Source of the DNA: Amphiscolops sp. MND2022
Lineage: Eukaryota
Reading direction: 5' to 3'
DNA: 64,000 bases
Assembly (NCBI GenBank): GCA_964187785.1
Contig: OZ076409.1
Span: 2,294,001 to 2,358,000, forward strand
The stretch's first letter is position 1. The number at the start of each line of letters is the position of its first letter. The notes under the pieces are model-generated. The model worked only from the letters and a program-made list of their open reading frames with translations, ran no database searches and was not told where the DNA came from. Made by a program: the position numbers and the translations under genes. Shown piece by piece: positions 44,050 through 61,400 of this stretch.

Positions 44050-44804
44050 ATTGAGAGAGTGGAAACTATTGCATATTTCCAATGGCGGCACTCTTACTAA
44101 ATTGCGCTTGGATGACTCGGAAATCTCATTGTGGTTGGTTGAGTTTTTTCAAATATGCCAAAATGTATAAATGAACAAAAATGTATCAATGTCGAAAGGA
44201 TTATATATTTTTCGAAAGTTTTTTTTCCAAATATTGAGGACATTTAAATCAACTTTTGTTTTTACATTCAGAAATTTGTCAACAGAAAAACTTATTAATT
44301 ACAAAAAGACACAGGCGCTCAAAACAAATATAGAAGAACAGATAACTTTGAAAAACTTCATCCGACAAGTTGAAAATATTAATTAAAAGGAAATAATTGC
44401 AAGTGACTTCTGCGTGAACCAAAGAGTCCCCTTTGGCGTTGTGTCAGCGTAGTAACCCCTTAGAGGGTTATTCTTTTTAAACATTTACGAAGGAGTTGCT
44501 AAATTTCAAAATCGTATCTTAACCCTAAATGGACCAGGACCGATCCAAAAATCTGGTGTTTAAATTTTACACCGCAATATCTCCTAAACTATTCAAGTCC
44601 GACAAACAATTTATAGAGCGTACGAAAGAGTACAATCAGGGCTTTCAAATCAATTTTCAAACTGCTGGGCTCCGGACTTTGCGCCAAAACTTTGCACGCC
44701 TTGCGTCTCTGATTGCATTTCAGCATGTTTCAACACATGCTAGGGAGTAGTGGTGGTGTGTATGCCTTGAGTTTTCAGCGTAGTCGGGTCCTAAATTAAA
44801 GTAG

Positions 44805-44884
44805 AAAAACATTTTTGTTGGTGGGGCTCGAACTCGGGCCGGTGGGGTCGGAGTCGGATGGCTTACCGCTGGGCCACGGTGAGC
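44805..44884 (-). ncRNA. tRNA-like Pol III cassette in the left TIR
   Basis: Mirror copy with a better B box (GAGTTCGAGCC). Confidence 0.5.
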
Positions 44885-45039
44885 TGAAATAGCTTGAATT
44901 GTACTTTCATATAAAGCGTTCTGAGCTCATAGCGGCGTTTACATCAGTTTGCTGAGTATGTATTAATGGGTAGGAGGTATTTCTGCACCAATTTAAAAAT
45001 GAAACTGGGTTTGAAAGATACATATACAGAAGATCGATT

Positions 45040-47838
45040 GCATATACCCAGTATATGCTCATGTATATCCAATCTCACCCGCTTTTGACTAGTGTTAGGG
45101 TTCTATCTCTTGGAAGAGATCACGTATAGCTTACATATGCCAAAGTATTACCAGACTTAGACACTTTTGAAGGTTGTTAGCCTTCGATAAATTGGAAGAT
45201 AGAGTGTATATACCCAGTGTATGCTCCTGTATGTCCAATCTCAGACACTTTTGACTAGTGTTAGCGTTCTTTAGCTTGGAAGAGATTACGTATAGCTTAC
45301 ATATGCCAATGTATAACAAGTCATAGACACCTTTTAATGTTGTTAGCATACTATATAGCGGAAGAGAGACTGTATATACCCGGTATATGCTCATGTATAT
45401 CCAATCTCACCCGCTTTTGACTAATGTTAGGGTTCTATCTCTTGGAAGAGATCACGTATAGCTTACATATGCCAAAGTATTACCAGACTTAGACACTTTT
45501 GAATGTTGTTAGCCTTCGATAAATTGGGAGATAAAGTGTATATACCCAGTGTATGCTCCTGTATGTCCAATCTCAGACACTTTTGACTAGTGTTAGCGTT
45601 CTTTAGCTTGGAAGAGATTACGTATAGCTTACATATGCCAATGTATAACCAGTCAAAGACACCTTTGAATGTTGTTAGCATACTATATAGCGGAAGAGAG
45701 ACTGTATATACCCAGTGTATGCTCCTGTATGTCCAATCTCAGACACTTTTGACTAGTGTTAGCGTTCTATAGCTTGGAAGAGATTACGTATAGCTTACAT
45801 ATGCCAATGTATAACCAGTCTTCGACACCTTTGAATGTTGTTAGCCTTCGATAAATTGGAAGATAGACTGTATTTACCCAGTGTAAGCTCATGTATATCG
45901 AATCTCAGACACATTTGACTAGTGTTAGCGTTCTATATCTTGAAAGACATTACGTATATCTTACAAAAGCCAATATATAACCAGTCTTAGAAACTTTTGA
46001 CTGTTGTTAGCATACTGTATACCAAAAGATACTGTATACACCTAGTACATGCTGATGTATAACTAATCCCAGGCACTTTTGGCTAGTGTTAGCGTTCTAT
46101 AACTTGAAAGAGATTACCTATAGCTTACATGTGCCAATGTATACCAATCTTAGACACTTTTGAATGTTGTTAGCATACTATATAGCGGAAGATAGACTGT
46201 ATATATCCGGTATCAGCTTTTGTATATCCAATATCAGACACTTGTGACTAGTGTTAGCGTTCTATATCGAAAGACATTACGTATGGCTTACAAAGACCAA
46301 TGTATTACCAGTCTTAGACACCTTTGAATGTTGTTAGCCTTCGATAAATTGGGCGATAGACTGTTTATACCCAGTGTATGCTCCTGTATGTCCAATCTCA
46401 GACACTTTTGACTAGTGTTAGCGTTCTATGGCTTGGAAGAGATTACGTATAGCTTACATATGCCAATGTATAACAAGTCATAGAAACTTTTGACTGTTGT
46501 TAGCATACTATATACCAAAATAGACTGTATACACCTAGTACATGCTGATGTATAACTAATCTGACACTTTTGGCTAGTGTTAGCGTTCTATAACTTGAAA
46601 GAGAGTACCTATAGCTTACATGTGCCAATGTTTAACCAGTCTTAGACAATTTTGAATGTTGTCAGCATACTATATACCGGAAGATAGACTGTATATATCC
46701 GGTATTAGCTTATGTATATCCAATATCAGACATTTTTGACTAGTGTTAGCGTTCTATATCTTGAAAAACATTACGTATGGCTTACATAGACCAATGTATA
46801 ACCTGTCTTAGACACTTTTGAATGTTTTTAGCCTTCGATAAATTGGAAGATCGGCTGTTTATACCCAGTGTAAGCTCATTTATATCCAATCTCACCCGCT
46901 TTTGACTAGTGTTAGGGTTCTATATCTTGGAAGAGATTACGTATAGCTTACATATGCCAAAGTATTACCAGACTTAGACTCTTTTGAATTATGTTAGCAT
47001 ACTATATACCGAAAGATAGACTCTATATGCTCGGTATATGCTGATGTATATCCAATCTCAGACACTTTTGACTTGTGTTAGCATACTATATACCAGAAGA
47101 TAGACTGTATATACCCTGTATATGCTAATGTATATCCAATCTCAGACACGTTTGACTAGTGTTAGCGATCTATATCTTGAAAGAGAACCTAAATCTTCTG
47201 CATTGTCATGTATATCTAATCTCAGACAGTTTTGCATAGTGTGTTAGCCTGTTGAATACTGAACGAGAGACTACCTAAATCGTGTATACGATAATGCATA
47301 CCCAATTTTAGACCCTTTAGCATGATGTTAGTCTACTATACACAGAAAATAGACTGCATACACCCTAAATAAGCTCATGTATATACAAACATGGACACGT
47401 TTGACTAGTTTAGCGTTCTATTTATTGAAAGAGATTACCTAAACCCTCTACAATTTCTTGTATATCTAATCTTAGACACTTTTTCTTGGTGTTAGCCTAT
47501 AAACACTGAAAAATTGACTGCACAAATTGTGTATACGCTAGTGTATAACCAACCTCATACACTTTTGCATGATTAGTCAGTACTGTATACTGAACGATAG
47601 ACTGCAAATGTCTCTTGTATATCCATCGTCAAGCAATTCTGGACAATTTTGGCTGGCATTAGCCTTCTATCTATTGGAAGATAGACCGCATGTAACCAAC
47701 AAGGCCTCACGTATTTTCAATTTTGGACGGACTGCATGTAACAAGGCCTCACGTATTTTCAATTTTGGAGGGTTTTGGCTAGCAATAGCCTACTACATAC
47801 CGAAAAATAGACTGCTTTTGACCTGAGTAGCGTCACTC
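45040..47838 (-). repeat. 166-bp satellite array (two ~83-bp halves, 332-bp higher order) in the left TIR
   Basis: GACTA(G/A)TGTTAG recurs at 45087, 45253 and 45419; the array degenerates inward and is cut by the gap. Confidence 0.93.
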
Positions 47839-48038
47839 NNNNNNNNNNNNNNNNNNNNNNNNNNNNNNNNNNNNNNNNNNNNNNNNNNNNNNNNNNNNNN
47901 NNNNNNNNNNNNNNNNNNNNNNNNNNNNNNNNNNNNNNNNNNNNNNNNNNNNNNNNNNNNNNNNNNNNNNNNNNNNNNNNNNNNNNNNNNNNNNNNNNNN
48001 NNNNNNNNNNNNNNNNNNNNNNNNNNNNNNNNNNNNNN
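47839..48038. other. Assembly gap (200 N)
   Basis: Run of N. Confidence 1.
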
Positions 48039-49449
48039 GTTCACGATTTGTAAAAAAAACTCTCCCAAATAGAAGGCTCCTTGGGTCCAGGGGACAATAA
48101 GAATTGCTTTCCATATTCTTTTGTCGAAAATGACTGCCTGGGTGGAACAATGAACTTGAAATGTTTGCGGAGTAAATCATCAATGATGTCTTTGACAAGT
48201 AAAGTTTTGATTATTTTTTTTCGGAAATTGCCACACGGAGTAGCGTTCTTCTGAGTTCATAGATTTTTTGGATTGTGAACTGGTGAACATCAAAAATCTT
48301 TTCAACGATTTCGCAAATGGTTTCGTTAAATCATGGGAAACAGGAAATGCTTCCGACAACTGCCGCCAGTGGCGAGGTGTAGAAGCATGGAAACCACGCT
48401 TTCCCTTTTTGTCTGCGAATGATAGCCGGTCGCAACCATGCTTGTAGTAGTGTATAGGTAACCCAAGTGAATCTGCAAAAACTAGGTCATCATCTTTTTT
48501 GCGGCCGAGTAAAACCCAATGAGTGAATTTTTGATTCGCTTTGTCTGAGTTTACAATCAAGAATGATTGGCAATCGATATAAAGAGGAATGTGTCCGCTG
48601 CATTGACACCTTCAAAATTGTACTAGAGACGTACGCATCTAATGATTAGACGCCACAATTCTACCTCATCAATCATTTTTTTAGTCTGAATTCCAGTTTC
48701 GGTAAGGCGGTTTGTTGAGAATTTTGTCAACCTTTTGGGTTCATTTCACAAGAAAAACTCTGCTCGTTAGTGAAATTCTGAACTTTAGTCGTACAATATC
48801 TAATTGTTTATTGGTTTGTTACATGAAACTAATATTGAAAAACTGCTGGTTCCATTCAGGTATGATGATCAAACAAGTTCAATTGCATTTTTTTGAATTT
48901 CAATTTGACTCAACACAGAGGCTCGAGCCCCAATTTAGATCAGTACGGGGACTCGCAAGAGCCAGTCAATCATGAGAGAACTGATAAGTCTTCAAGTCAC
49001 TATTGAATAATCGAACCGAAGTGACAGAAATGTTCCTGTTGAGATATATTTGAACCGTCTTATGAACTGCTAGGCAAAAAGGGAAAGCGTGGTTTCCATG
49101 CTTCTTCTACACCTCGCCACTGGCGGCAGTTGTCGGAAGCATTTCCTGTTTCCCATGATTTAACGAAACCATTTGCGAAATCGTTGAAAAGATTTTTAAT
49201 GTTCACCAGTTCACAATCCAAAAACATCTATGAACTCAGAAGAACGCTACTCCGTGTGGCAATTTCCGAAAAAAAAATCAAAACTTTGCTTGTCAAAGAC
49301 ATCATTGATGATTTACTCCGCAAACATTTCAAGTTCATTGTTCCACCCAGGCAGTCATTTTCGACAAAAGAATATGGAAAGCAATTCTTATTGTCCCCTG
49401 GACCCAAGGAGCCTTCTATTTGGAAGAGTTTTTTTTACAAATCGTGAAC
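48039..49449. repeat. ~370-bp inverted duplication (48039-48411 vs 49076-49449)
   Basis: Near-identical reverse-complement copies; the ORF track shows the same peptides on opposite strands. Confidence 0.92.
48412..48676 (-). pseudogene. Adenain-like (Maverick PRO) cysteine protease, truncated
   Basis: MIDEVELWRL...FEGVNAAD (with a stop and a frameshift), then IVNSD....THWVLL....LVFADSLGLP; the catalytic Cys region is missing. Confidence 0.78.
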
Positions 49450-49768: not shown

Positions 49769-50149
49769 TCACAACCCTGTCAGGTCCAACTGTGACACTT
49801 GAAAAGTCGGTTTTTCACCTTCACTCTTTTTCATTTTCTTTGGGGCTGGAGGGCAATCCTTCATTGTGATGATTTTTGATTTCTTTGGTGTCTCAGATGC
49901 ACACACTCGCTTTGCGTCACCTATATTGTTGTAAAGACTGGTTGAACCATCGTCAGGTGACTCGGGCGAACCTTTGATACCCCAGTACCATTCCAGTGTT
50001 TCCATGTCTGACAGGTAGCCTATCTGGTTTTCCGTAAAAGGCACATTCCGGCAGTCAATTTCGTAAAGCAGCTGCCGCACGGCTGAGGGTAACTCGAACC
50101 GATCATAGATTATAGTGGTCGAGAACGGTTCTTCGACTGTGTCCGTCAT
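49769..50149 (-). CDS. Hypothetical 126-aa protein in the Maverick core
   Basis: ATG-initiated intact ORF (MTDTVEEPF...) with a basic NLS-like tail PPAPKKMKK. Confidence 0.55.
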   Translation of the reverse strand: MTDTVEEPFSTTIIYDRFELPSAVRQLLYEIDCRNVPFTENQIGYLSDMETLEWYWGIKGSPESPDDGSTSLYNNIGDAKRVCASETPKKSKIITMKDCPPAPKKMKKSEGEKPTFQVSQLDLTGL

Positions 50150-50896
50150 GTTGGTAGTTTGGGGTGTAATCTTTGGCGAATATTCAGTTCTCAGCAGTGA
50201 AAACAAATCTTTCGGAATTGAAACTGCTTTTGATTGACCGAACGTCTTCCCATAAATCTTCTTCGACTATTGCTATTGTTCTGGTAAACCAAGTTTCGTA
50301 AAACGTGAATCTTGAGTGATTGTTGATACATCTGAAAGTCTGCAACGGTAGTTTCATGGTATCTGGAAAGCAGAGAAAATGAAAGAAAATCCGTTTTGTT
50401 GGTCAAAAAGTCACTTTACAAAACTAACTCACTAGATTAGCGAGAGACCGAGACAGGCAGATTGATAAACAAATATAAACAATTAGGCACCAAGCACTAA
50501 GCCAGATGTTTATGAAATTCAACTTTTGAACAAGTTAATGCTTGAACGCCTATCAAACCGATTTAGCTTTGTAACCGTTTTTATTACTCAACCACAAGAC
50601 TCGATCGAAGTATGTTAGTAATTGCAATAAACTAACTTGTTAAAACGTGTACCACTTCAGCTACATTTTTGCTGTTTTTTTTGTTTTTCAGTGATTCTTG
50701 CTTTTCTGACTCAATCCAAAATGGAAATTGAAGTTACACTGGATCATCCAAGATGTGAGGATCGTTCTGCCTAATATCCAATGCGTGAAAACCCTTTTAC
50801 TAGCTAAGCGCAATCAATGTGTGTGATCAAAAAAAAGTTGTGAATGCAGATTAAATTCGATATCAAAAATAAACCATAAGAAGCATTGCGGACAGA

Positions 50897-51475
50897 TTAT
50901 GACGTTTCAGAAGCATCAAATGAGAAATATAAGCTACTAGAGCTAATACACCCGTAACCATGATCAAGAATGTCTAGTATTTTGTACAAAGTTGAAGCAG
51001 AGGGGCCTTGGGACAGTCGCTGGAATCTTATAAGTGAAACAGTTGGTAAAACACAAGTTTGAGTACTTTTGTCTCGCCTGATTTGAACCAGGGGAACTTT
51101 ACGTCGAGCCTGGGTCAGCAACATTTTGTTCTCTTTCACGTTGTACTGCATCGCCATATGCAATCGTTTCATCACTTCTCCATGCATTACGAAGCCGGAG
51201 CAGTCCGCTAACAAGAGACAGAAAGTTGAGTAGAGGCAAGGTACGTTGTAACTGTTCCTCTTCTCCGAATCACATTCAAAAAGAACATGGTAATGTGATG
51301 GTTTATCAAAACCACAGAGATGATCAGAAGTCGACGCATGAATACCGAACGCATAGTTTGATCCCGATGGAATATCCAGTCCAATCCTTGGTTCATTTTC
51401 AAGCACGAGGTACCGGAAATTTTTTCGATGCTGTTTGAAATAATCAGGATGTTGTTCGTGCATTGCTTCAACCAT
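50897..51475 (-). CDS. HUH-motif protein (Rep/NS1-nuclease-like?), 192 aa
   Basis: Intact ORF with YAFGIH...PSHYHVLF (HUH plus hydrophobic strand; 51281-51295). Confidence 0.55.
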   Translation of the reverse strand: MVEAMHEQHPDYFKQHRKNFRYLVLENEPRIGLDIPSGSNYAFGIHASTSDHLCGFDKPSHYHVLFECDSEKRNSYNVPCLYSTFCLLLADCSGFVMHGEVMKRLHMAMQYNVKENKMLLTQARRKVPLVQIRRDKSTQTCVLPTVSLIRFQRLSQGPSASTLYKILDILDHGYGCISSSSLYFSFDASETS

Positions 51476-51856: not shown

Positions 51857-52207
51857 TCATATCGTGGTCTCTTTGCTTTTTCTTCCCGGCACATCCGGAT
51901 TGTTTTCTTTGACTCGCTTGTTTGGCTTCTCCCTCATTGCGTCTTCAGAGCTCACAGGTCCTAATCGTATATTCTCTGTATTTGCCATCAAAAGTTGAAA
52001 TTCTTTAACAGCCAGTGCTACCCTTTGTTGCATACAAAAGTTGTCCCGATCATCTCTCCGTTTGAACAATTTTATTGTGATGTAAGTGCCGCCAGAACTT
52101 TGATACGTGTTTGTGGTGACTCGGATCAGCCTTTTTTCGGATGTAGCCACATCAACATATGCATCTCCGAAATCTTGATCTTTCAGCAATGTCGTACCGA
52201 AAATCAT
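51857..52207 (-). CDS. PC4-like ssDNA-binding protein, 116 aa
   Basis: Pattern KRLIRVTTNTY...TYITIKLFK....QRVALAVKEFQLL follows the PC4 beta-beta-beta-beta-helix layout. Confidence 0.6.
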   Translation of the reverse strand: MIFGTTLLKDQDFGDAYVDVATSEKRLIRVTTNTYQSSGGTYITIKLFKRRDDRDNFCMQQRVALAVKEFQLLMANTENIRLGPVSSEDAMREKPNKRVKENNPDVPGRKSKETTI

Positions 52208-52939: not shown

Positions 52940-55900
52940 TATACAGGATAAAAACAGTCGATTGTTCATAACTTACCAGGCTAACACCAGCCAAAAGTGT
53001 CAAGGATTGGGTTCGATTTTAAAAAAAAGCATGTACGGTATTCATCTAAATCTCAATTTATCTCTCTATTCTATCTTTCTATCAGACAGTCTGTCCATTC
53101 ACACTGAGCGGGTACCGGCCGAAAGCGTCTAGACATTAATGTACATGAGCATCAGCTGAAAATATACTTTCTAGGAATTTCTAGGATGTAGTAGGCTAAA
53201 GCTATCCAAAAGTACCTAAAACTGTTTGAAGATGGGTATATAATAGACATATGCAGTGTATCGTTCAACACAGATCCAAACTAGCCAAAACATTCTACGA
53301 TTCGAAGTTGGTACGCATAGATTGGATTTATACAGTCCATCTTTCATCATATAGTAGGTTAACTTCAGTCGAACCTGTTCAAGACTGGAAATTCATGAGC
53401 ATTTATAAGATAAAAGCAGTCTATGTCGCAGTAGAAAGTAGGCCTTTGCCGGCCGCAATCGTCTAAAACTGGATATATGTGACGCTATTTCGGTCAAAAG
53501 CTAAAATTTTCAGCTTGTAGTTTGCTTTTGCTAGCCAGAACTGTCTCAAACTACATACGAGAGGCTTTGTAGGTTAAATGCAGTCTGTCCTTCAATAAAC
53601 AGTAGGCTAATCCTAGCCAATACTGTGTAAAAATGTTCATATACGGTAATACATAGGATAGTTGCAGTTTATCGCTCAGCATATAGGAGGTTGAAACGGT
53701 CAGAACCGTTTACGATTAGAGGTACCCGAACATATACTTGCTATATACAGTCTATCGTTCAGTAAATAGTAGGTTAAAACTCGTCGAAACTGTCCAAGTT
53801 TCGAAACTCATGAGCATTCATAAGAAAATGCAGTGAATCTTGCAGTAGAGAGTAGGCCTTTACCAGCCGCAACCATTCGAAAGTTGATACGTCAGAGGCT
53901 CTTTAGATCATTTGCCGTCTATTTTGAAGTAGATAGGAAGCCATTGCTAGCCTAAACTGTCTTGAACTGGAATTACAAGAGGCTCTGTGGAATATATAGT
54001 CTGTCTTCCAATAGACAAAAATCTAATGCTAGCCAAAACTGTTCAAAAATGTTCATATACGAGTATACATGTGGCATTTGCTATCTATCGTTCGGCATGA
54101 AGCATGTTAGAACCAACCAGAATTTCATATGATTGGAAGTACCTAAGCATCTGTTGGGTATTTACAGTCCATCGTTCAGTAAATAGTACGTTTGAACAAG
54201 TCGAAACAGTCAAAGTTTCGAAAAATAACAGTATTTATTAAAGAGCACTGTATCTTTCAGTAGATATTGGGACATTGCATCTGGAATTGTCTAAAATTGA
54301 ATAAGAGTGACGCTACTCAGGTCAAAAGCAGTCTATTTTTCGGTATGTAGTAGGCTATTGCTAGCCGAAACCCTCCAAAATTGAAAATACGTGAGGCCGT
54401 GTTACATGCAGTCCGTCCAAAATTGAAAATACGTGAGGCCTTGTTGGTTACATTTGGTCTATCTTCCAATAGATAGAAGGCTAATGCCAGCCAAAATTGT
54501 CCAGAATTGCTTGACGATGGATATACAAGAGACATTTGCAGTCTATCGTTCAGTATACAGTACTGACTAACCATGCAAAAGTGTATGAGTTTGGTTATAC
54601 ACTAGCGTATACACAATTTGTGCAGTCAATTTTTCAGTGTTTATAGGCTAACACCAAGAAAAAGTGTCTAAGATTAGATATACAAGAAATTGTAGAGGGT
54701 TTAGGTAATCTCTTTCAATAAATAGAACGCTAAACTAGTCAAAAGTGTCCATGTTTGTATATACATGAGCTCATTTAGGGTGTATGCTGTCTATTTTCTG
54801 TGTATAGTAGACTAACATCATGCTAAAGGGTCTAAAATTGGGTATGCATTATCGTATACACGATTTAGGTAGTCTCTCGTTCAGTATTCAACAGGCTAAC
54901 ACACTATGCAAAACTGTCTGAGATTAGATATACATCACAATGCAGAAGATTTAGGTTCTCTTTCAAGATATAGATCGCTAACACTAGTCAAACGTGTCTG
55001 AGATTGGATATACATTAGCATATACAGGGTATATACAGTCTATCTTTTGGTATATAGTATGCTAACACAAGTCAAAAGTGTCTGAGATTGGATATACATC
55101 AGCATATACCGAGCATATAGAGTCTATCTTTCGGTATATAGTATGCTAACATAATTCAAAAGAGTCTAAGTCTGGTAATACTTTGGCATATGTAAGCTAT
55201 ACGTAATCTCTTCCAAGATATAGAACCCTAACACTAGTCAAAAGCGGGTGAGATTGGATATAAATGAGCTTACACTGGGTATAAACAGTCGATCTTCCAA
55301 TTTATCGAAAGCTAAAAACATTCAAAAGTGTCTAAGACAGGTTATACATTGGTCTATGTAAGCCATACGTAATGTTTTTCAAGATATAGAACGCTAACAC
55401 TAGTCAAAAATGTCTGATATTGGATATACATAAGCTAATACCGGATATATACAGTCTATCTTCCGGTATATAGTATGCTGACAACATTCAAAAGTGTCTA
55501 AGACTGGTTAAACATTGGCACATGTAAGCTATAGGTACTCTCTTTCAAGTTATAGAACGCTAACACTAGCCAAAAGTGTCAGATTAGTTATACATCAGCA
55601 TGTACTAGGTGTATACAGTCTATTTTGGTATATAGTATGCTAACAACAGTCAAAAGTTTCTATGACTTGTTATACATTGGCATATGTAAGCTATACGTAA
55701 TCTCTTCCAAGCCATAGAACGCTAACACTAGTCAAAAGTGTCTGAGATTGGACATACAGGAGCATACGCTGGGTATAAACAGTCTATCGCCCAATTTATC
55801 GAAGGCTAACAACATTCAAAGGTGTCTAAGACTGGTAATACATTGGTCTTTGTAAGCCATACGTAATGTCTTTCGATATAGAACGCTAACACTAGTCAAA

Positions 55901-58900
55901 AGTGTCTGATATTGGATATACAAAAGCTGATACCGGATATATACAGTCTATCTTCCGCTTTATAGTATGCTAACAACATTCAAAAGTGTCTAAGATTGGT
56001 ATACATTGGCACATGTAAGCTATAGGTAATCTCTTTCAAGTTATAGAACGCTAACACTAGCCAAAAGTGCCTGGGATTAGTTATACATCAGCATGTACTA
56101 GGTGTATACAGTATCTTTTGGTATACAGTATGCTAACAACAGTCAAAAGTTTCTAAGACTGGTTATATATTGGCTTTTGTAAGATATACGTAATGTCTTT
56201 CAAGATATAGAACGCTAACACTAGTCAAATGTGTCTGAGATTCGATATACATGAGCTTACACTGGGTAAATACAGTCTATCTTCCAATTTATCGAAGGCT
56301 AACAACATTCAAAGGTGTCGAAGACTGGTTATACATTGGCATATGTAAGCTATACGTAATCTCTTCCAAGCTATAGAACGCTAACACTAGTCAAAAGTGT
56401 CTGAGAATGGACATACAGGAGCATACACTGGGTATAGACAGTCTCTCTTCCGCTATATAGTATGCTAACAACATTCAAAGGTGTCTTTGACTGGTTATAC
56501 ACTAGCGTATACACAATTTGTGCAGTCAATTTTTCAGTGTTTATAGGCTAACACCAAGAAAAAGTGTCTAAGATTAGATATACAAGAAATTGTAGAGGGT
56601 TTAGGTAATCTCTTTCAATAAATAGAACGCTAAACTAGTCAAAAGTGTCCATGTTTGTATATACATGAGCTTATTTAGGGTGTATGCTGTCTATTTTCTG
56701 TGTATAGTAGACTAACATCATGCTAAAGGGTCTAAAATTGGGTATGCATTATCGTATACACGATTTAGGTAGTCTCTCGTTCAGTATTCAACAGGCTAAC
56801 ACACTATGCAAAACTGTCTGAGATTAGATATACATCACAATGCAGAAGATTTAGGTTCTCTTTCAAGATATAGATCGCTAACACTAGTCAAACGTGTCTG
56901 AGATTGGATATACATTAGCATATACAGGGTATATACAGTCTATCTTTTGGTATATAGTATGCTAACACAAGTCAAAAGTGTCTGAGATTGGATATACATC
57001 AGCATATACCGAGCATATAGAGTCTATCTTTCGGTATATAGTATGCTAACATAATTCAAAAGAGTCTAAGTCTGGTAATACTTTGGCATATGTAAGCTAT
57101 ACGTAATCTCTTCCAAGATATAGAACCCTAACACTAGTCAAAAGCGGGTGAGATTGGATATAAATGAGCTTACACTGGGTATAAACAGTCGATCTTCCAA
57201 TTTATCGAAGGCTAAAAACATTCAAAAGTGTCTAAGACAGGTTATACATTGGTCTATGTAAGCCATACGTAATGTTTTTCAAGATATAGAACGCAAACAC
57301 TAGTCAAAAATGTCTGATATTGGATATACATAAGCTAATACCGGATATATACAGTCTATCTTCCGGTATATAGTATGCTGACAACATTCAAAAGTGTCTA
57401 AGACTGGTTAAACATTGGCACATGTAAGCTATAGGTACTCTCTTTCAAGTTATAGAACGCTAACACTAGCCAAAAGGGTCAGATTAGTTATACATCAGCA
57501 TGTACTAGGTGTATACAGTCTATTTTGGTATATAGTATGCTAACAACAGTCAAAAGTTTCTATGACTTGTTATACATTGGCATATGTAAGCTATACGTAA
57601 TCTCTTCCAAGCTATAGAACGCTAACACTAGTCAAAAGTGTCTGAGATTCGATATACATGAGCTTACACTGGGTAAATACAGTCTATCTTCCAATTTATC
57701 GAAGGCTAACAACATTCAAAGGTGTCGAAGACTGGTTATACATTGGCATATGTAAGCTATACGTAATCTCTTCCAAGCTATAGAACGCTAACACTAGTCA
57801 AAAGTGTCTGAGATTGGACATACAGGAGCATACACTGGGTATATACAGTCTCTCTTCCGCTATATAGTATGCTAACAACATTCAAAGGTGTCTTTGACTG
57901 GTTATACATTGGCATATGTAAGCTATACGTAATCTCTTCCAAGCTAAAGAACGCTAACACTAGTCAAAAGTGTCTGAGATTGGACATACAGGAGCATACA
58001 CCATACACTGGGTATATACACTTTATCTCCCAATTTATCGAAGGCTAACAACATTCAAAAGTGTCTAAGTCTGGTAATACTTTGGCATATGTAAGCTATA
58101 CGTGATCTCTTCCAAGAGATAGAACCCTAACATTAGTCAAAAGCGGGTGAGATTGGATATACATGAGCATATACCGGGTATATACAGTCTCTCTTCCGCT
58201 ATATAGTATGCTAACAACATTCAAAGGTGTCTATGACTGGTTATACATTGGCATATGTAAGCTATACGTAATCTCTTCCAAGCTAAAGAACGCTAACACT
58301 AGTCAAAAGTGTCTGAGATTGGACATACAGGAGCATACACTGGGTATAAACAGTCTAGCGCCCAATTTACCGAAGGCTAAAAACATTCAAAAGTGTCTAA
58401 GACAGGTTATACATTGGTCTATGTAAGCCATACGTAATGTTTTTCAAGATATAGAACGCTAACACTAGTCAAAAATGTCTGATATTGGATATACATAAGC
58501 TAATACCGGATATATACAGTCTATCTTCCGGTATATAGTATGCTGACAACATTCAAAAGTGTCTAAGACTGGTTAAACATTGGCACATGTAAGCTATAGG
58601 TACTCTCTTTCAAGTTATAGAACGCTAACACTAGCCAAAAGGGTCAGATTAGTTATACATCAGCATGTACTAGGTGTATACAGTCTATTTTGGTATATAG
58701 TATGCTAACAACAGTCAAAAGTTTCTATGACTTGTTATACATTGGCATATGTAAGCTATACGTAATCTCTTCCAAGCTATAGAACGCTAACACTAGTCAA
58801 AAGTGTCTGAGATTGGACATACAGGAGCATACATTGGGTATAAACAGTCTATCGCCCAATTTATCGAAGGCTAACAACATTCAAAGGTGTCTAAGACTGG

Positions 58901-60000
58901 TAATACATTGGTCTTTGTAAGCCATACGTAATGTCTTTCGATATAGAACGCTAACACTAGTCAAAAGTGTCTGATATTGGATATACAAAAGCTGATACCG
59001 GATATTTACAGTCTATCTTCCGCTATATAGTATGCTAACAACATTCAAAAGTGTCTAAGATTGGTATACATTGGCACATGTAAGCTATAGGTAATCTCTT
59101 TCAAGTTATAGCACGCTAACACTAGCCAAAAGTGCCTGGGATTAGTTATACATCAGCATATCCTAGGTGTATACAGTATCTTTTGGTATACAGTATGCTA
59201 ACAACAGTCAAAAGTTTCTAAGACTGGTTATATATTGGCTTTTGTAAGATATACGTAATGTCTTTCAAGATATAGAACGCTAACACTAGTCAAATGTGTC
59301 TGAGATTCGATATACATGAGCTTACACTGGGTAAATACAGTCTATCTTCCAATTTATCGAAGGCTAACAACATTCAAAGGTGTCTTTGACTGGTTATACA
59401 TTGGCATATGTAAGCTATACGTAATCTCTTCCAAGCTAAAGAACGCTAACACTATTCAAAAGTGTCTGAGATTGGACATACAGGAGCATACACTGGGTAT
59501 ATACACTTTATCTCCCAATTTATCGAAGGCTAACAACATTCAAAAGTGTCTAAGTCTGGTAATACTTTGGCATATGTAAGCTATACGTGATCTCTTCCAA
59601 GAGATAGAACCCTAACATTAGTCAAAAGCGGGTGAGATTGGATATACATGAGCATATACCGGGTATATACAGTCTCTCTTCCGCTATATAGTATGCTAAC
59701 AACATTCAAAGGTGTCTATGACTGGTTATACATTGGCATATGTAAGCTATACGTAATCTCTTCCAAGCTAAAGAACGCTAACACTAGTCAAAAGTGTCTG
59801 AGATTGGACATACAGGAGCATACACTGGGTATATACACTCTATCTCCCAATTTATCGAAGGCTAACAACCTTCAAAAGTGTCTAAGTCTGGTAATACTTT
59901 GGCATATGTAAGCTATACGTGATCTCTTCCAAGAGATAGAACCCTAACACTAGTCAAAAGCGGGTGAGATTGGATATACATGAGCATATACTGGGTATAT
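52940..60000 (+). repeat. 166-bp satellite array in the right TIR, inverted relative to the left
   Basis: Reverse complement of the left array; 54305 pairs with 47838; contains a ~1.9-kb-period duplication (54601 vs 56501); strongly degenerate at 52940-54900. Confidence 0.93.
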
Positions 60001-60157
60001 GCAATCGATCTTCTGTATATGTATCTTTGAAACCCAGTTTCATTTTTAAATTGGTGCAGAAATACCTCCTACCCATTAATACATACTCAGCAAACTGATG
60101 TAAACGCCGCTACGAGCTCAGAACGCTTTATATGAAAGTACAATTCAAGCTATTTCA

Positions 60158-60237
60158 GCTCACCGTGGCCCAGCGGTAAGCCATCCGACTCCGACCCCAC
60201 CGGCCCGAGCTCGAGCCCCACCAACAAAAATGTTTTT
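60158..60237 (+). ncRNA. tRNA-like Pol III cassette in the right TIR
   Basis: A box TGGCCCAGCGG, B box GAGCTCGAGCC, T5 at 60233-60237, TATA-like TTATATGAAA ~25 nt upstream; the cloverleaf stems do not pair. Confidence 0.5.
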
Positions 60238-61400
60238 CTACTTTAATTCAGGACCCGACTACGCTGAAAACTCAAGGCATACACACCACCACTACTCTAG
60301 GGTCACTTTGGCCCAAACTTGATACCAGTGGGATAAAAGGGCCACAAACGAAAACTGGAAAAACGGAAAATCTGCGCTCAATTTTTTTTCTGATTTTTTG
60401 GTCCCATTTTCTTGATCTCGGAGACATCATGTCAATATTCTGTGGAAAAGTTCAAAATGCTATGTAAAATCGTCTGAAAATCCTATTGAAGAGTTTTCTT
60501 CACCATACGGTCAGCTGGTGCGTTTAGAAGTTTGCAGAATTTAACTGGTACGAAATCGTACCAGGTCCATTTAGGGTAAATGTTTTTTCCAAAAAGCCTA
60601 ATTTTACAGCTTATTTTTTCCGAGATTGTAGAATGATTCCGAAATCAACAATATCACGGGCTTCGATAAATTCAGGGGGGGGTTGATTGAACAAAATATT
60701 TCTCATAAAGTCTGACCAAAGTAGACCAAAATGAGAAAAACATCAATTTTGAACTAAATTTGGCTAAAAATGGCCCATCTTACTCTAACAATTTTCATCG
60801 CATAATTTTCAAACAAAAATATTTGTAAACTAGATAGAAATCGAAGAAACTTTTACTTTGACCATTTTTCACAGGCACCGCCGTTTTCGAGATATTCGAT
60901 TTTGAGATTTTCCTTATGTTGCTTTTAATGGCGGATTCCCAAAGCGTCGAATATTCAAAGCGTCGAAATTTTGCAAGCTATTCATCGCGCCCAAAAATAA
61001 TTAGTGAACGCTTCTGATTGGTTGAAAATTGAAATAAGAATTAAATTTGTTGAATTTGTGTGCTACACAGCATCGAACTAATTACGATAACGTAGTCAGC
61101 TATGTTCACATACTCCTAGTGCCCTAACTGCAGGAGCGAAGCGAAGTAGAGCGACGCGCCATATGGCCATGCCTCAATGTTGTTACTTGGCGAAGGGAGC
61201 GAAGCGACCGAGTCATACAACAAATATGCTAACCTCTTCAAATAATAACCTGAAAATAATCGCTGATATGGAGTTTTTCGACGCGATGAATACTTTCGTT
61301 TAATTTCGACTCAATGAATAGCCTCTGCTTTTAATAATATCACTAATTGACCCAAACAGTAGAATATTGAAATCAGAAAGGGAAGCAAAATAAAACCAGC

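What the first reader, a model, noticed from the sequence alone, without database searches (positions are those of the whole stretch)
50897..51475. Intact HUH-motif ORF inside a Maverick-type element
The 192-aa ORF has YAFGIH...HYHVLF, the spacing seen around motif II of HUH (rolling-circle or parvoviral NS1-type) endonucleases, with downstream tyrosines (SYNVPCLY) but no clear YxxK. HUH nucleases are not part of the canonical Maverick core. If real, it may reflect gene exchange with ssDNA viruses, as in bidnaviruses, or an alternative origin-nicking or hairpin-resolution step. The call rests on a short motif only.
Basis: inference. Interest (0 to 1): 0.7.

Follow-up and report, generated by a model that had tools for sequence, protein, structure and literature searches.

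The report
Rep-fold gene in palindromic Maverick satellites
A family of giant mirror-image Maverick elements that have no polymerase, integrase or intact capsid gene keeps, under strong selection, a gene predicted to fold like the DNA-nicking Rep proteins of small viruses but likely without their cutting tyrosine, so these elements likely persist as parasites of full-size Mavericks.

Summary
The 192-aa ORF and its His motifs are real. H46, C54, H61, H63 and C80 are kept in 93-98% of 80 homologues. A confident model ranks HUH/Rep and polyoma/papilloma origin-binding domains first, but only weakly (best Z 5.3). No tyrosine is conserved (at most 68%), so Tyr-based nicking is doubtful. The host element is Maverick-type (AGTAGT//ACTACT ends, 6-bp duplication) but is not a full Maverick. 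It belongs to a family of polymerase-less palindromes of about 15-17 kb, whose arms (7.8 kb in the copy measured end to end) each carry a PC4-like gene, this gene and a third ORF; 49 inward-facing pairs were found. The same three genes sit between protease and pPolB in some full Mavericks of this genome (34-38% identity). dN/dS is 0.08-0.12 even among polymerase-less copies. Best reading: a Rep-derived metal-binding DNA-binding helper of Maverick replication, kept by a long-lived satellite lineage that borrows polymerase and integrase. An active nickase is not excluded. No description was found in the papers searched.

The parts
44740..44745 (+). Left 6-bp target-site duplication CTAGGG
44746..47838 (+). 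Left arm as assembled: AGTAGT terminus plus 83/166-nt tandem array (45018-47438); ends at an assembly gap
47839..48038 (.). 200-N assembly gap; the left copies of the three genes, present in gap-free sister L073, are absent or hidden here
48039..49449 (.). Centre: inner inverted repeat (48039-48414 / 49072-49449, 97%) around a piece of the capsid-gene end and protease-gene start (48411-48728), 87% identical to full Mavericks L088/L091
49769..50357 (-). ORF3 (about 197 aa in sisters, no family found); in this copy split between two frames near 50200-50230
50897..51475 (-). The finding: 192-aa HUH/Rep-like-fold protein; conserved H46, C54, H61, H63, C80; no conserved Tyr
51857..52207 (-). 116-aa PC4-like candidate ssDNA-binding protein (lead-level evidence)
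54305..60296 (-). Right arm matching the left: 83/166-nt tandem array (54705-60024) and ACTACT terminus; array about 64% and a 128-nt end segment 82% identical to full Mavericks L087-L092
60297..60302 (+). Right 6-bp target-site duplication CTAGGG

Best explanation
The ORF encodes a conserved Maverick accessory protein that is predicted to have the HUH/Rep fold and likely binds a metal through its conserved His/Cys set but likely lacks a catalytic tyrosine, so it would act as an origin- or hairpin-binding replication helper beside a likely PC4-type ssDNA-binding protein, and it is kept under selection by a family of palindromic, polymerase-less elements that likely live as satellites of full Mavericks. 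Shown: the conservation pattern, the synteny in full Mavericks, the palindromic anatomy, 6-bp duplications, purifying selection. Predicted: the fold. Inferred: the element is excised and copied by a helper's pPolB from its Maverick-type ends; a displaced strand would fold back on its own long arms into a duplex; the three-gene module would help the satellite compete for helper replication; a helper integrase reinserts it. The nearest elements by ends, tandem array and centre piece are full Mavericks (L088/L091) in which the module was not detected.
For: Fold: domain model pLDDT 91, pTM 0.84; 14 of the top 15 of 48,161 chains are HUH Reps or large-T/E1 origin-binding domains; the top 31 rows of the second look likewise, best Z 5.3, rmsd 3.2, 77 aligned; Foldseek's top hit is RepB of pMV158 (E 0.01-0.03). 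His spacing 46/61/63 matches RepB's 39/55/57 metal ligands (PMC5030251 passages). No Tyr column above 68%; of 65 rows with all five His/Cys, 10 have neither Y82 nor Y111. Tyr-less, DNA-binding HUH folds have precedent in polyoma- and papillomaviruses (PMC6668415 passages). Synteny PRO><HUH<PC4 | ORF3> upstream of pPolB in L094, L097, L100, L105 (pPolB mostly missing in the L094 copy), and PC4-HUH-PRO in an unrelated metagenome contig. dN/dS 0.11 between palindromic subfamilies and 0.10 and 0.08 within the MATH-centred subfamily (p 3e-6, 6e-8). Palindromic copies form their own clade (SH-aLRT 100, quick tree). 49 inward pairs, 0 outward. 6-bp duplications at 6 of 7 elements examined.
Against: Structural scores are in the range that a common alpha/beta arrangement can give (Z under 8; Foldseek E above 0.001). 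The profile comparison with a single RepB sequence found only the 12-residue motif (prob 2%). All 10 in-genome copies checked keep both Y82 and Y111. Metal geometry could not be inspected. The PC4 call is a lead only (Atlas 0.88-0.89; Pfam PC4 in 3 of 52 members, best E 0.006; no PDB sequence hit). A full-length parent close to the palindromic clade was not found, but searches were capped at 150 rows.
Confidence: 0.5

Rival explanations
1. The protein is an active HUH endonuclease with an unusual nucleophile (Y111 on the helix after the last strand, placed as in Y1 transposases, or Y82 or a conserved Cys) that nicks and resolves the fold-back hairpin or the element's ends.
For: Intact His triad; literal YxxK at 111-114; Y82 and Y111 present in 10 of 10 in-genome copies; a palindromic genome plus a candidate SSB suits hairpin resolution; a REP-associated Tyr transposase appears among weak hits (Z 2.2-2.3); in the distant group a Tyr aligns with C80.
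Against: Y111 is Phe in 14 of 78 rows, in rows from different branches of the tree; Y82 only 48/80; insertion leaves integrase-type 6-bp duplications; no helicase fusion seen (top 150 hits at most 318 aa; none among 558-2000-aa proteins, weak evidence).
Confidence: 0.22
2. The palindromes are passive copy-back debris; the selection signal was inherited from full-length parents that are extinct or were not sampled, and the gene worked only in those parents.
For: The window copy is decaying (ORF3 split); the centre is a broken piece of capsid and protease genes; many copies carry stops; searches were capped at 150 rows; a chimera with an ATPase-bearing Maverick exists (L069).
Against: Low dN/dS holds between copies that share the same polymerase-less, MATH-centred layout; both arms of an element carry their lineage's substitutions in 4 of 5 subfamily-B elements; the closest full-Maverick homologue found is only 34-38% identical.
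Confidence: 0.15
3. The protein is not HUH-derived: it is a small zinc-binding alpha/beta domain whose HxH and fold resemble Reps by convergence.
For: Z at most 5.3; no sequence-level link (Pfam Rep_OBD in 1 of 80 members at E 0.08; none in PDB); two conserved Cys are not Rep features; RRM/ferredoxin-like folds follow at Z 2.4-3.7.
Against: Rep-fold entries from plasmids and from gemini-, circo-, nano-, smaco-, parvo-, polyoma- and papillomaviruses fill the top ranks in three searches; the upstream His and the HUH fall at RepB's spacing.
Confidence: 0.13

Closest known systems
RepB of pMV158-family plasmids (Rep_OBD, PF01719; PDB 3DKX)
   Same: Predicted fold; upstream His plus HUH at nearly the same spacing (46/61/63 against 39/55/57); top Foldseek hit.
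   Different: No conserved Tyr; two conserved Cys; much shorter path from HUH to the following helix; no significant sequence match.
CRESS-virus and parvovirus Rep nuclease domains (WDV, FBNYV, PCV2, AAV)
   Same: Best VIA matches, Z 3.5-5.3 over 72-94 residues.
   Different: Stand-alone protein of about 200 aa, no SF3 helicase fusion seen, motif III not conserved.
Polyomavirus large-T and papillomavirus E1 origin-binding domains
   Same: Rep fold without a catalytic Tyr (PMC6668415 passages); Z 3.4-4.7.
   Different: Those lost all three motifs; this family keeps the His set.
Mriyavirus and Zora-type PLV HUH endonucleases
   Same: HUH gene in a double-jelly-roll virus relative, with an SSB in some genomes (PMC11253617 and bioRxiv 10.64898/2026.06.19.733378 passages).
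   Different: Mriyaviruses lack a DNA polymerase and keep motif III; here the gene lies beside pPolB in Mavericks and lacks a conserved Tyr.
Mavericks/Polintons and their non-autonomous derivatives
   Same: (AGT)2//(ACT)2 ends (PMC8097293 passage), 6-bp duplication, core genes in the full elements. Non-autonomous Polintons are known (recalled, not from a call).
   Different: Arms of 7.8 kb in the measured copy against 46-1,447 bp in vertebrate Mavericks and about 100-360 bp in full elements here; arms carry three selected genes; no pPolB, integrase, ATPase or intact capsid gene.

Membership tests
HUH endonuclease (Rep class) | HUH motif conserved | tested here: met
   H61 74/79, H63 74/80
HUH endonuclease (Rep class) | Rep-type alpha/beta fold with HUH on a central strand | tested here: inconclusive
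   Rep folds rank first but best Z 5.3, Foldseek E 0.01-0.03; HUH at the start of strand 62-67
HUH endonuclease (Rep class) | Conserved catalytic Tyr (motif III, YxxK) | tested here: not met
   Best columns Y111 53/78, Y62 53/79, Y82 48/80; K114 23/80; 22 of 80 rows have no Tyr in helix 81-90
HUH endonuclease (Rep class) | Metal-dependent ssDNA nicking with a covalent adduct | not testable with these tools
   needs biochemistry
HUH endonuclease (Rep class) | SF3 helicase fusion (eukaryotic viral Reps) | tested here: inconclusive
   none seen; the longer-length search is weak evidence and skipped lengths below 558 aa
Maverick/Polinton | AGTAGT//ACTACT termini and 6-bp duplication | tested here: met
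   window and 5 of 6 sisters; the sixth terminus was not resolved
Maverick/Polinton | pPolB, integrase, ATPase and capsid genes (autonomous element) | tested here: not met
   none by tblastn in the window or in the gap-free palindromes L031, L034, L037, L043, L046, L073; the window has a 200-N gap
PC4-type ssDNA-binding protein (neighbour gene) | PC4 profile or fold | tested here: inconclusive
   Atlas 0.88-0.89 to PC4 clusters; Pfam PC4 in 3 of 52 members below cut-off; no structure predicted
Satellite of a helper virus or element | Replication and packaging depend on a helper | not testable with these tools
   inferred from gene content, shared ends and duplications

The most novel reading that the evidence does not exclude
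Mavericks have their own satellites: self-complementary, snap-back elements with two copies of one helper end that maintain a Rep-fold/SSB replication module, swap termini between helper families and carry captured host genes such as a TRAF-like gene. The Rep-fold family is a new HUH branch that cuts or holds hairpin DNA through a His3/Cys2 metal site without the canonical tyrosine.
Probability: 0.35. Interest if true: 0.85.

Novelty: new variant of a known kind. Interest (0 to 1): 0.68.

Why it matters
How Mavericks excise, start replication and handle displaced single strands is untested, and their core gene set names no origin-binding or ssDNA-binding protein. A conserved Rep-fold plus PC4-like pair next to pPolB gives concrete small proteins to assay. 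A polymerase-less lineage that keeps these genes under selection points to parasites of Mavericks, not mere deletion debris, and a His/Cys Rep fold without a fixed tyrosine would be an intermediate between nicking Reps and the purely DNA-binding large-T and E1 domains.

Tried and rejected
Foldback/MULE-type transposon, first suspected from the repetitive arms: rejected by the AGTAGT ends, 6-bp duplications and Maverick-derived centre. Pfam on the ORF and on 80 homologues: nothing significant. PDB sequence profiles for the ORF, the PC4-like gene and ORF3: nothing. ESM Atlas for the ORF: unnamed clusters only, low recognition. Viral contigs: 58 pattern matches, none confirmed. Plasmid tblastn: none. 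BFVD Foldseek: best E 0.01, the named rows are Reps. Homodimer job with zinc: no answer. RNA runs: no RNA holder listed. Longer fused forms: none scored, weak evidence. A recalled likeness of ORF3's CPPAPKK to plant SIAMESE inhibitors: no paper held both terms, so left as recall. PC4-like gene dN/dS within subfamily B was uninformative (0.67, p 0.5, 84 codons).

Full report
Observation. The frame 50897-51475 (-) is open for 192 aa and holds the motifs quoted. The pattern H-x(10-20)-HUHUU occurs in 1,192 of 100,000 shuffles of the protein, so the motif alone is suggestive only. A word-based search gave 48 homologues; a profile search gave 348 clusters at 50% identity, of which the top 150 were at most 318 aa long. 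I aligned 80 of these sequences, chosen for covering the N-terminal domain and for diversity (A2). H46 (76/80), C54 (76/79), H61 (74/79), H63 (74/80), C80 (78/80) and G99 (74/80) are conserved; no Tyr column exceeds 68% (Y111 53/78 with Phe in 14; Y62 53/79; Y12 49/79; Y82 48/80).

Fold. AlphaFold2 gave pLDDT 81 for the whole protein (20-row alignment) and 91, pTM 0.84, for residues 1-120 (95 rows), with the HUH at the start of strand 62-67. Against 48,161 representative chains, 14 of the top 15 were HUH Rep domains or large-T/E1 origin-binding domains, best Z 4.9. In the second look the top 31 rows were of these kinds, many being repeat entries of the same proteins, best Z 5.3, rmsd 3.2, 77 aligned. 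Foldseek ranked RepB of pMV158 first for both models, at E 0.01-0.03. These scores are low enough to arise from a common arrangement; what persuades is the uniform ranking together with the His spacing. RepB binds Mn2+ through His39, Asp42, His55 and His57 and cuts with Tyr99 (PMC5030251, passages); the ORF has His46, His61 and His63. By eye, from the RepB sequence printed, Tyr99 falls near L87/L88 of helix 81-89, where Leu is found in 70 of 80 rows at position 88; this register is inference. Sequence methods found no link.

The element. Long inverted arms built on an 83/166-nt tandem unit flank the ORF. The ends are AGTAGT at 44746 and ACTACT at 60296, with CTAGGG duplicated on both sides, the (AGT)2//(ACT)2 form reported for Mavericks (PMC8097293, passages). 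Five of six sister elements also show 6-bp duplications; the sixth end was not resolved. The window copy has a 200-N gap at 47839-48038. Gap-free sisters show the plan: terminus, tandem array, PC4-like ORF, this ORF, ORF3, short centre, then the mirror image. In one copy the arms are 7.8 kb at over 99% identity around a 1.5-kb centre. The genome search returned 150 scored rows of 444 candidates; after dropping 10 rows by hand as overlapping or adjacent fragments, 98 of 140 places form 49 inward-facing pairs (median 7.1 kb apart), with 0 outward pairs. Subfamily A (the window's) has a piece of the capsid-gene end and protease start at its centre; subfamily B (75% identical protein) has a TRAF-type MATH ORF (Pfam E 5e-19). 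tblastn with core genes from full Mavericks found no pPolB, integrase, ATPase or capsid gene inside the palindromes, apart from the chimeric locus L069.

Full Mavericks. The genome holds many pPolB elements (93 rows shown, 1,908 candidates). I examined 13 loci. Four carry the three genes between protease and pPolB, as PRO><HUH<PC4 then ORF3>pPolB> (L094, L097, L100, L105; 34-38% identity); three of these were picked by ATPase similarity, L105 because of its hit to this ORF, and the L094 copy has lost most of pPolB. Five carry a distant relative near one end with the same H..C..HxH pattern (profile-profile probability 82%, E 1e-5). Four gave no hit (L088, L091, L103, L065). Of 47 copies closest to L100's protein, 31 have a listed ATPase within 9 kb on the other strand and none forms an inward pair. 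A metagenome contig repeats the order PC4-like, HUH-like, opposing protease-like frame (the protease label there rests on recalled motifs). So the gene is a lineage-specific Maverick accessory gene. The window's end segment (82%), tandem array (about 64%) and centre piece (87%) match L087-L092, a family in which the module was not detected; subfamily B ends differ from one another and partly match L102/L104.

Selection. Nei-Gojobori dN/dS for this ORF is 0.11-0.13 between subfamilies A and B (dS about 1.2) and 0.10 and 0.08 in two comparisons within B (14 and 17 synonymous against 5 and 5 non-synonymous changes; p 3e-6 and 6e-8; both use L037). ORF3 gives 0.21-0.26, the MATH ORF 0.48 (p 0.004-0.005), and the PC4-like gene within B was uninformative. 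Very recent copies show a few non-synonymous and no synonymous differences, as expected for decay after insertion. In 4 of 5 subfamily-B elements both arms group with their own lineage (6-13 differences in about 2 kb within, about 30 between lineages); L046 is an exception with 115 between its arms. A quick tree of 48 proteins puts the four palindromic copies and five unplaced database proteins in one clade (SH-aLRT 100, stem 0.57), apart from the three full-Maverick proteins included (the careful search did not finish, and the distant group was left out).

Mechanism. Shown: conservation, synteny, anatomy, duplications, selection. Predicted: Rep-like fold. Inferred: a metal-binding, DNA-binding role without Tyr chemistry, working with a PC4-type SSB during protein-primed strand-displacement copying; the palindromes would be copied and reinserted by helper pPolB and integrase, their displaced strands folding back into duplexes, which would also keep the arms alike. 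Genes under selection in an element that cannot copy itself are what a satellite would show. An active nickase remains possible because all 10 in-genome copies checked keep Y82 and Y111.

Literature. Searches: polinton+HUH+PC4 (1 paper), polinton+HUH endonuclease (14 listed), maverick+polinton+HUH from 2019 (11), polinton+non-autonomous+palindrom+TIR+satellite (5), maverick/polintovirus/satellite/defective/helper (11), polinton+ssDNA-binding terms (5), preplasmiviricota+HUH+terminal protein (0); these were seen as listings with abstract starts. Passages read: PMC11253617 and bioRxiv 10.64898/2026.06.19.733378 (active HUH in mriyaviruses and some PLVs), PMC11296320, PMC6668415 (inactive HUH folds in large T and E1; bidnaviruses replaced HUH by pPolB), PMC5030251, PMC8502044 and PMC8097293 (no 'HUH' in either main text). 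None describes this family or such palindromes. Supplements were not examined, and the unnamed accessory-gene clusters of PMC8502044 or repeat databases could already hold the family without a function. That non-autonomous Polintons exist is recalled. Earlier scan notes held nothing on this protein and two notes on other Polinton features in this genome.

Verdict. A real, selected gene with a probable HUH-derived fold and doubtful nuclease chemistry, in an unusual palindromic Maverick derivative. New variant of a known kind; interest 0.68.

Noticed in passing
L037:4893-5930 (-), L046:4227-5198 (+), L084:5736-6767 (+): Subfamily-B palindromes carry a 346-aa ORF ending in a TRAF-type MATH domain (Pfam E 5e-19) with dN/dS about 0.48; it looks like a captured host signalling-adaptor gene kept by the element.
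   Followed up: partly
window 49769-50357 (-); L031:7087-7677; L100:6949-7623; L106:489-1187: ORF3 homologues share an S/T-P site, then a CPPAPKK-like motif and a basic tail; a likeness to plant SIAMESE cell-cycle inhibitor motifs is recalled only. The gene lies just upstream of pPolB in full elements.
   Followed up: partly
L069 (G000:C3:58115000-58124999): Chimera: left genes, ATPase and part of the next gene of an L094-type Maverick joined to a subfamily-A arm.
   Followed up: partly
L052:5479-6342, L057:4899-5852, L060:4704-5726, L061:4560-5543, L049:4956-5351: Distant H..C..HxH homologue next to one end of another Maverick lineage; a Tyr aligns with C80 in the profile comparison.
   Followed up: partly
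L088:6992-9998, L091:1577-3524, L056:2938-6832, L059:2888-6750: pPolB reads as two consecutive frames in these copies, at the same place in L088 and L091.
   Followed up: no
L087:8807-9436, L093:8670-9242, L099:8396-9001, L102:8234-8842, L105:2065-2733: A 190-200-aa ORF starting with a 'DFEGF' motif lies upstream of the ATPase in several Maverick families; it recalls DEDD-type exonucleases (from memory, untested).
   Followed up: no
L089, L090, L095, L101, L104, L106: Each full Maverick family has a tandem array (83-84, 104, 108 or 176-nt unit) between pPolB and its end; the palindromes carry the 83/84-nt type at both ends.
   Followed up: partly
L049:5355-5864; L050:3478-7305: Weak Pfam hints, below cut-off, of a phospholipase A2-like ORF and an endonuclease VII-like insert in pPolB.
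   Followed up: no
window 11769-43419 (families D14, D15, D19, D20): A dispersed 50-135-nt repeat family with a GGGGGACCCTTTG-like core occurs about a dozen times outside the element.
   Followed up: no
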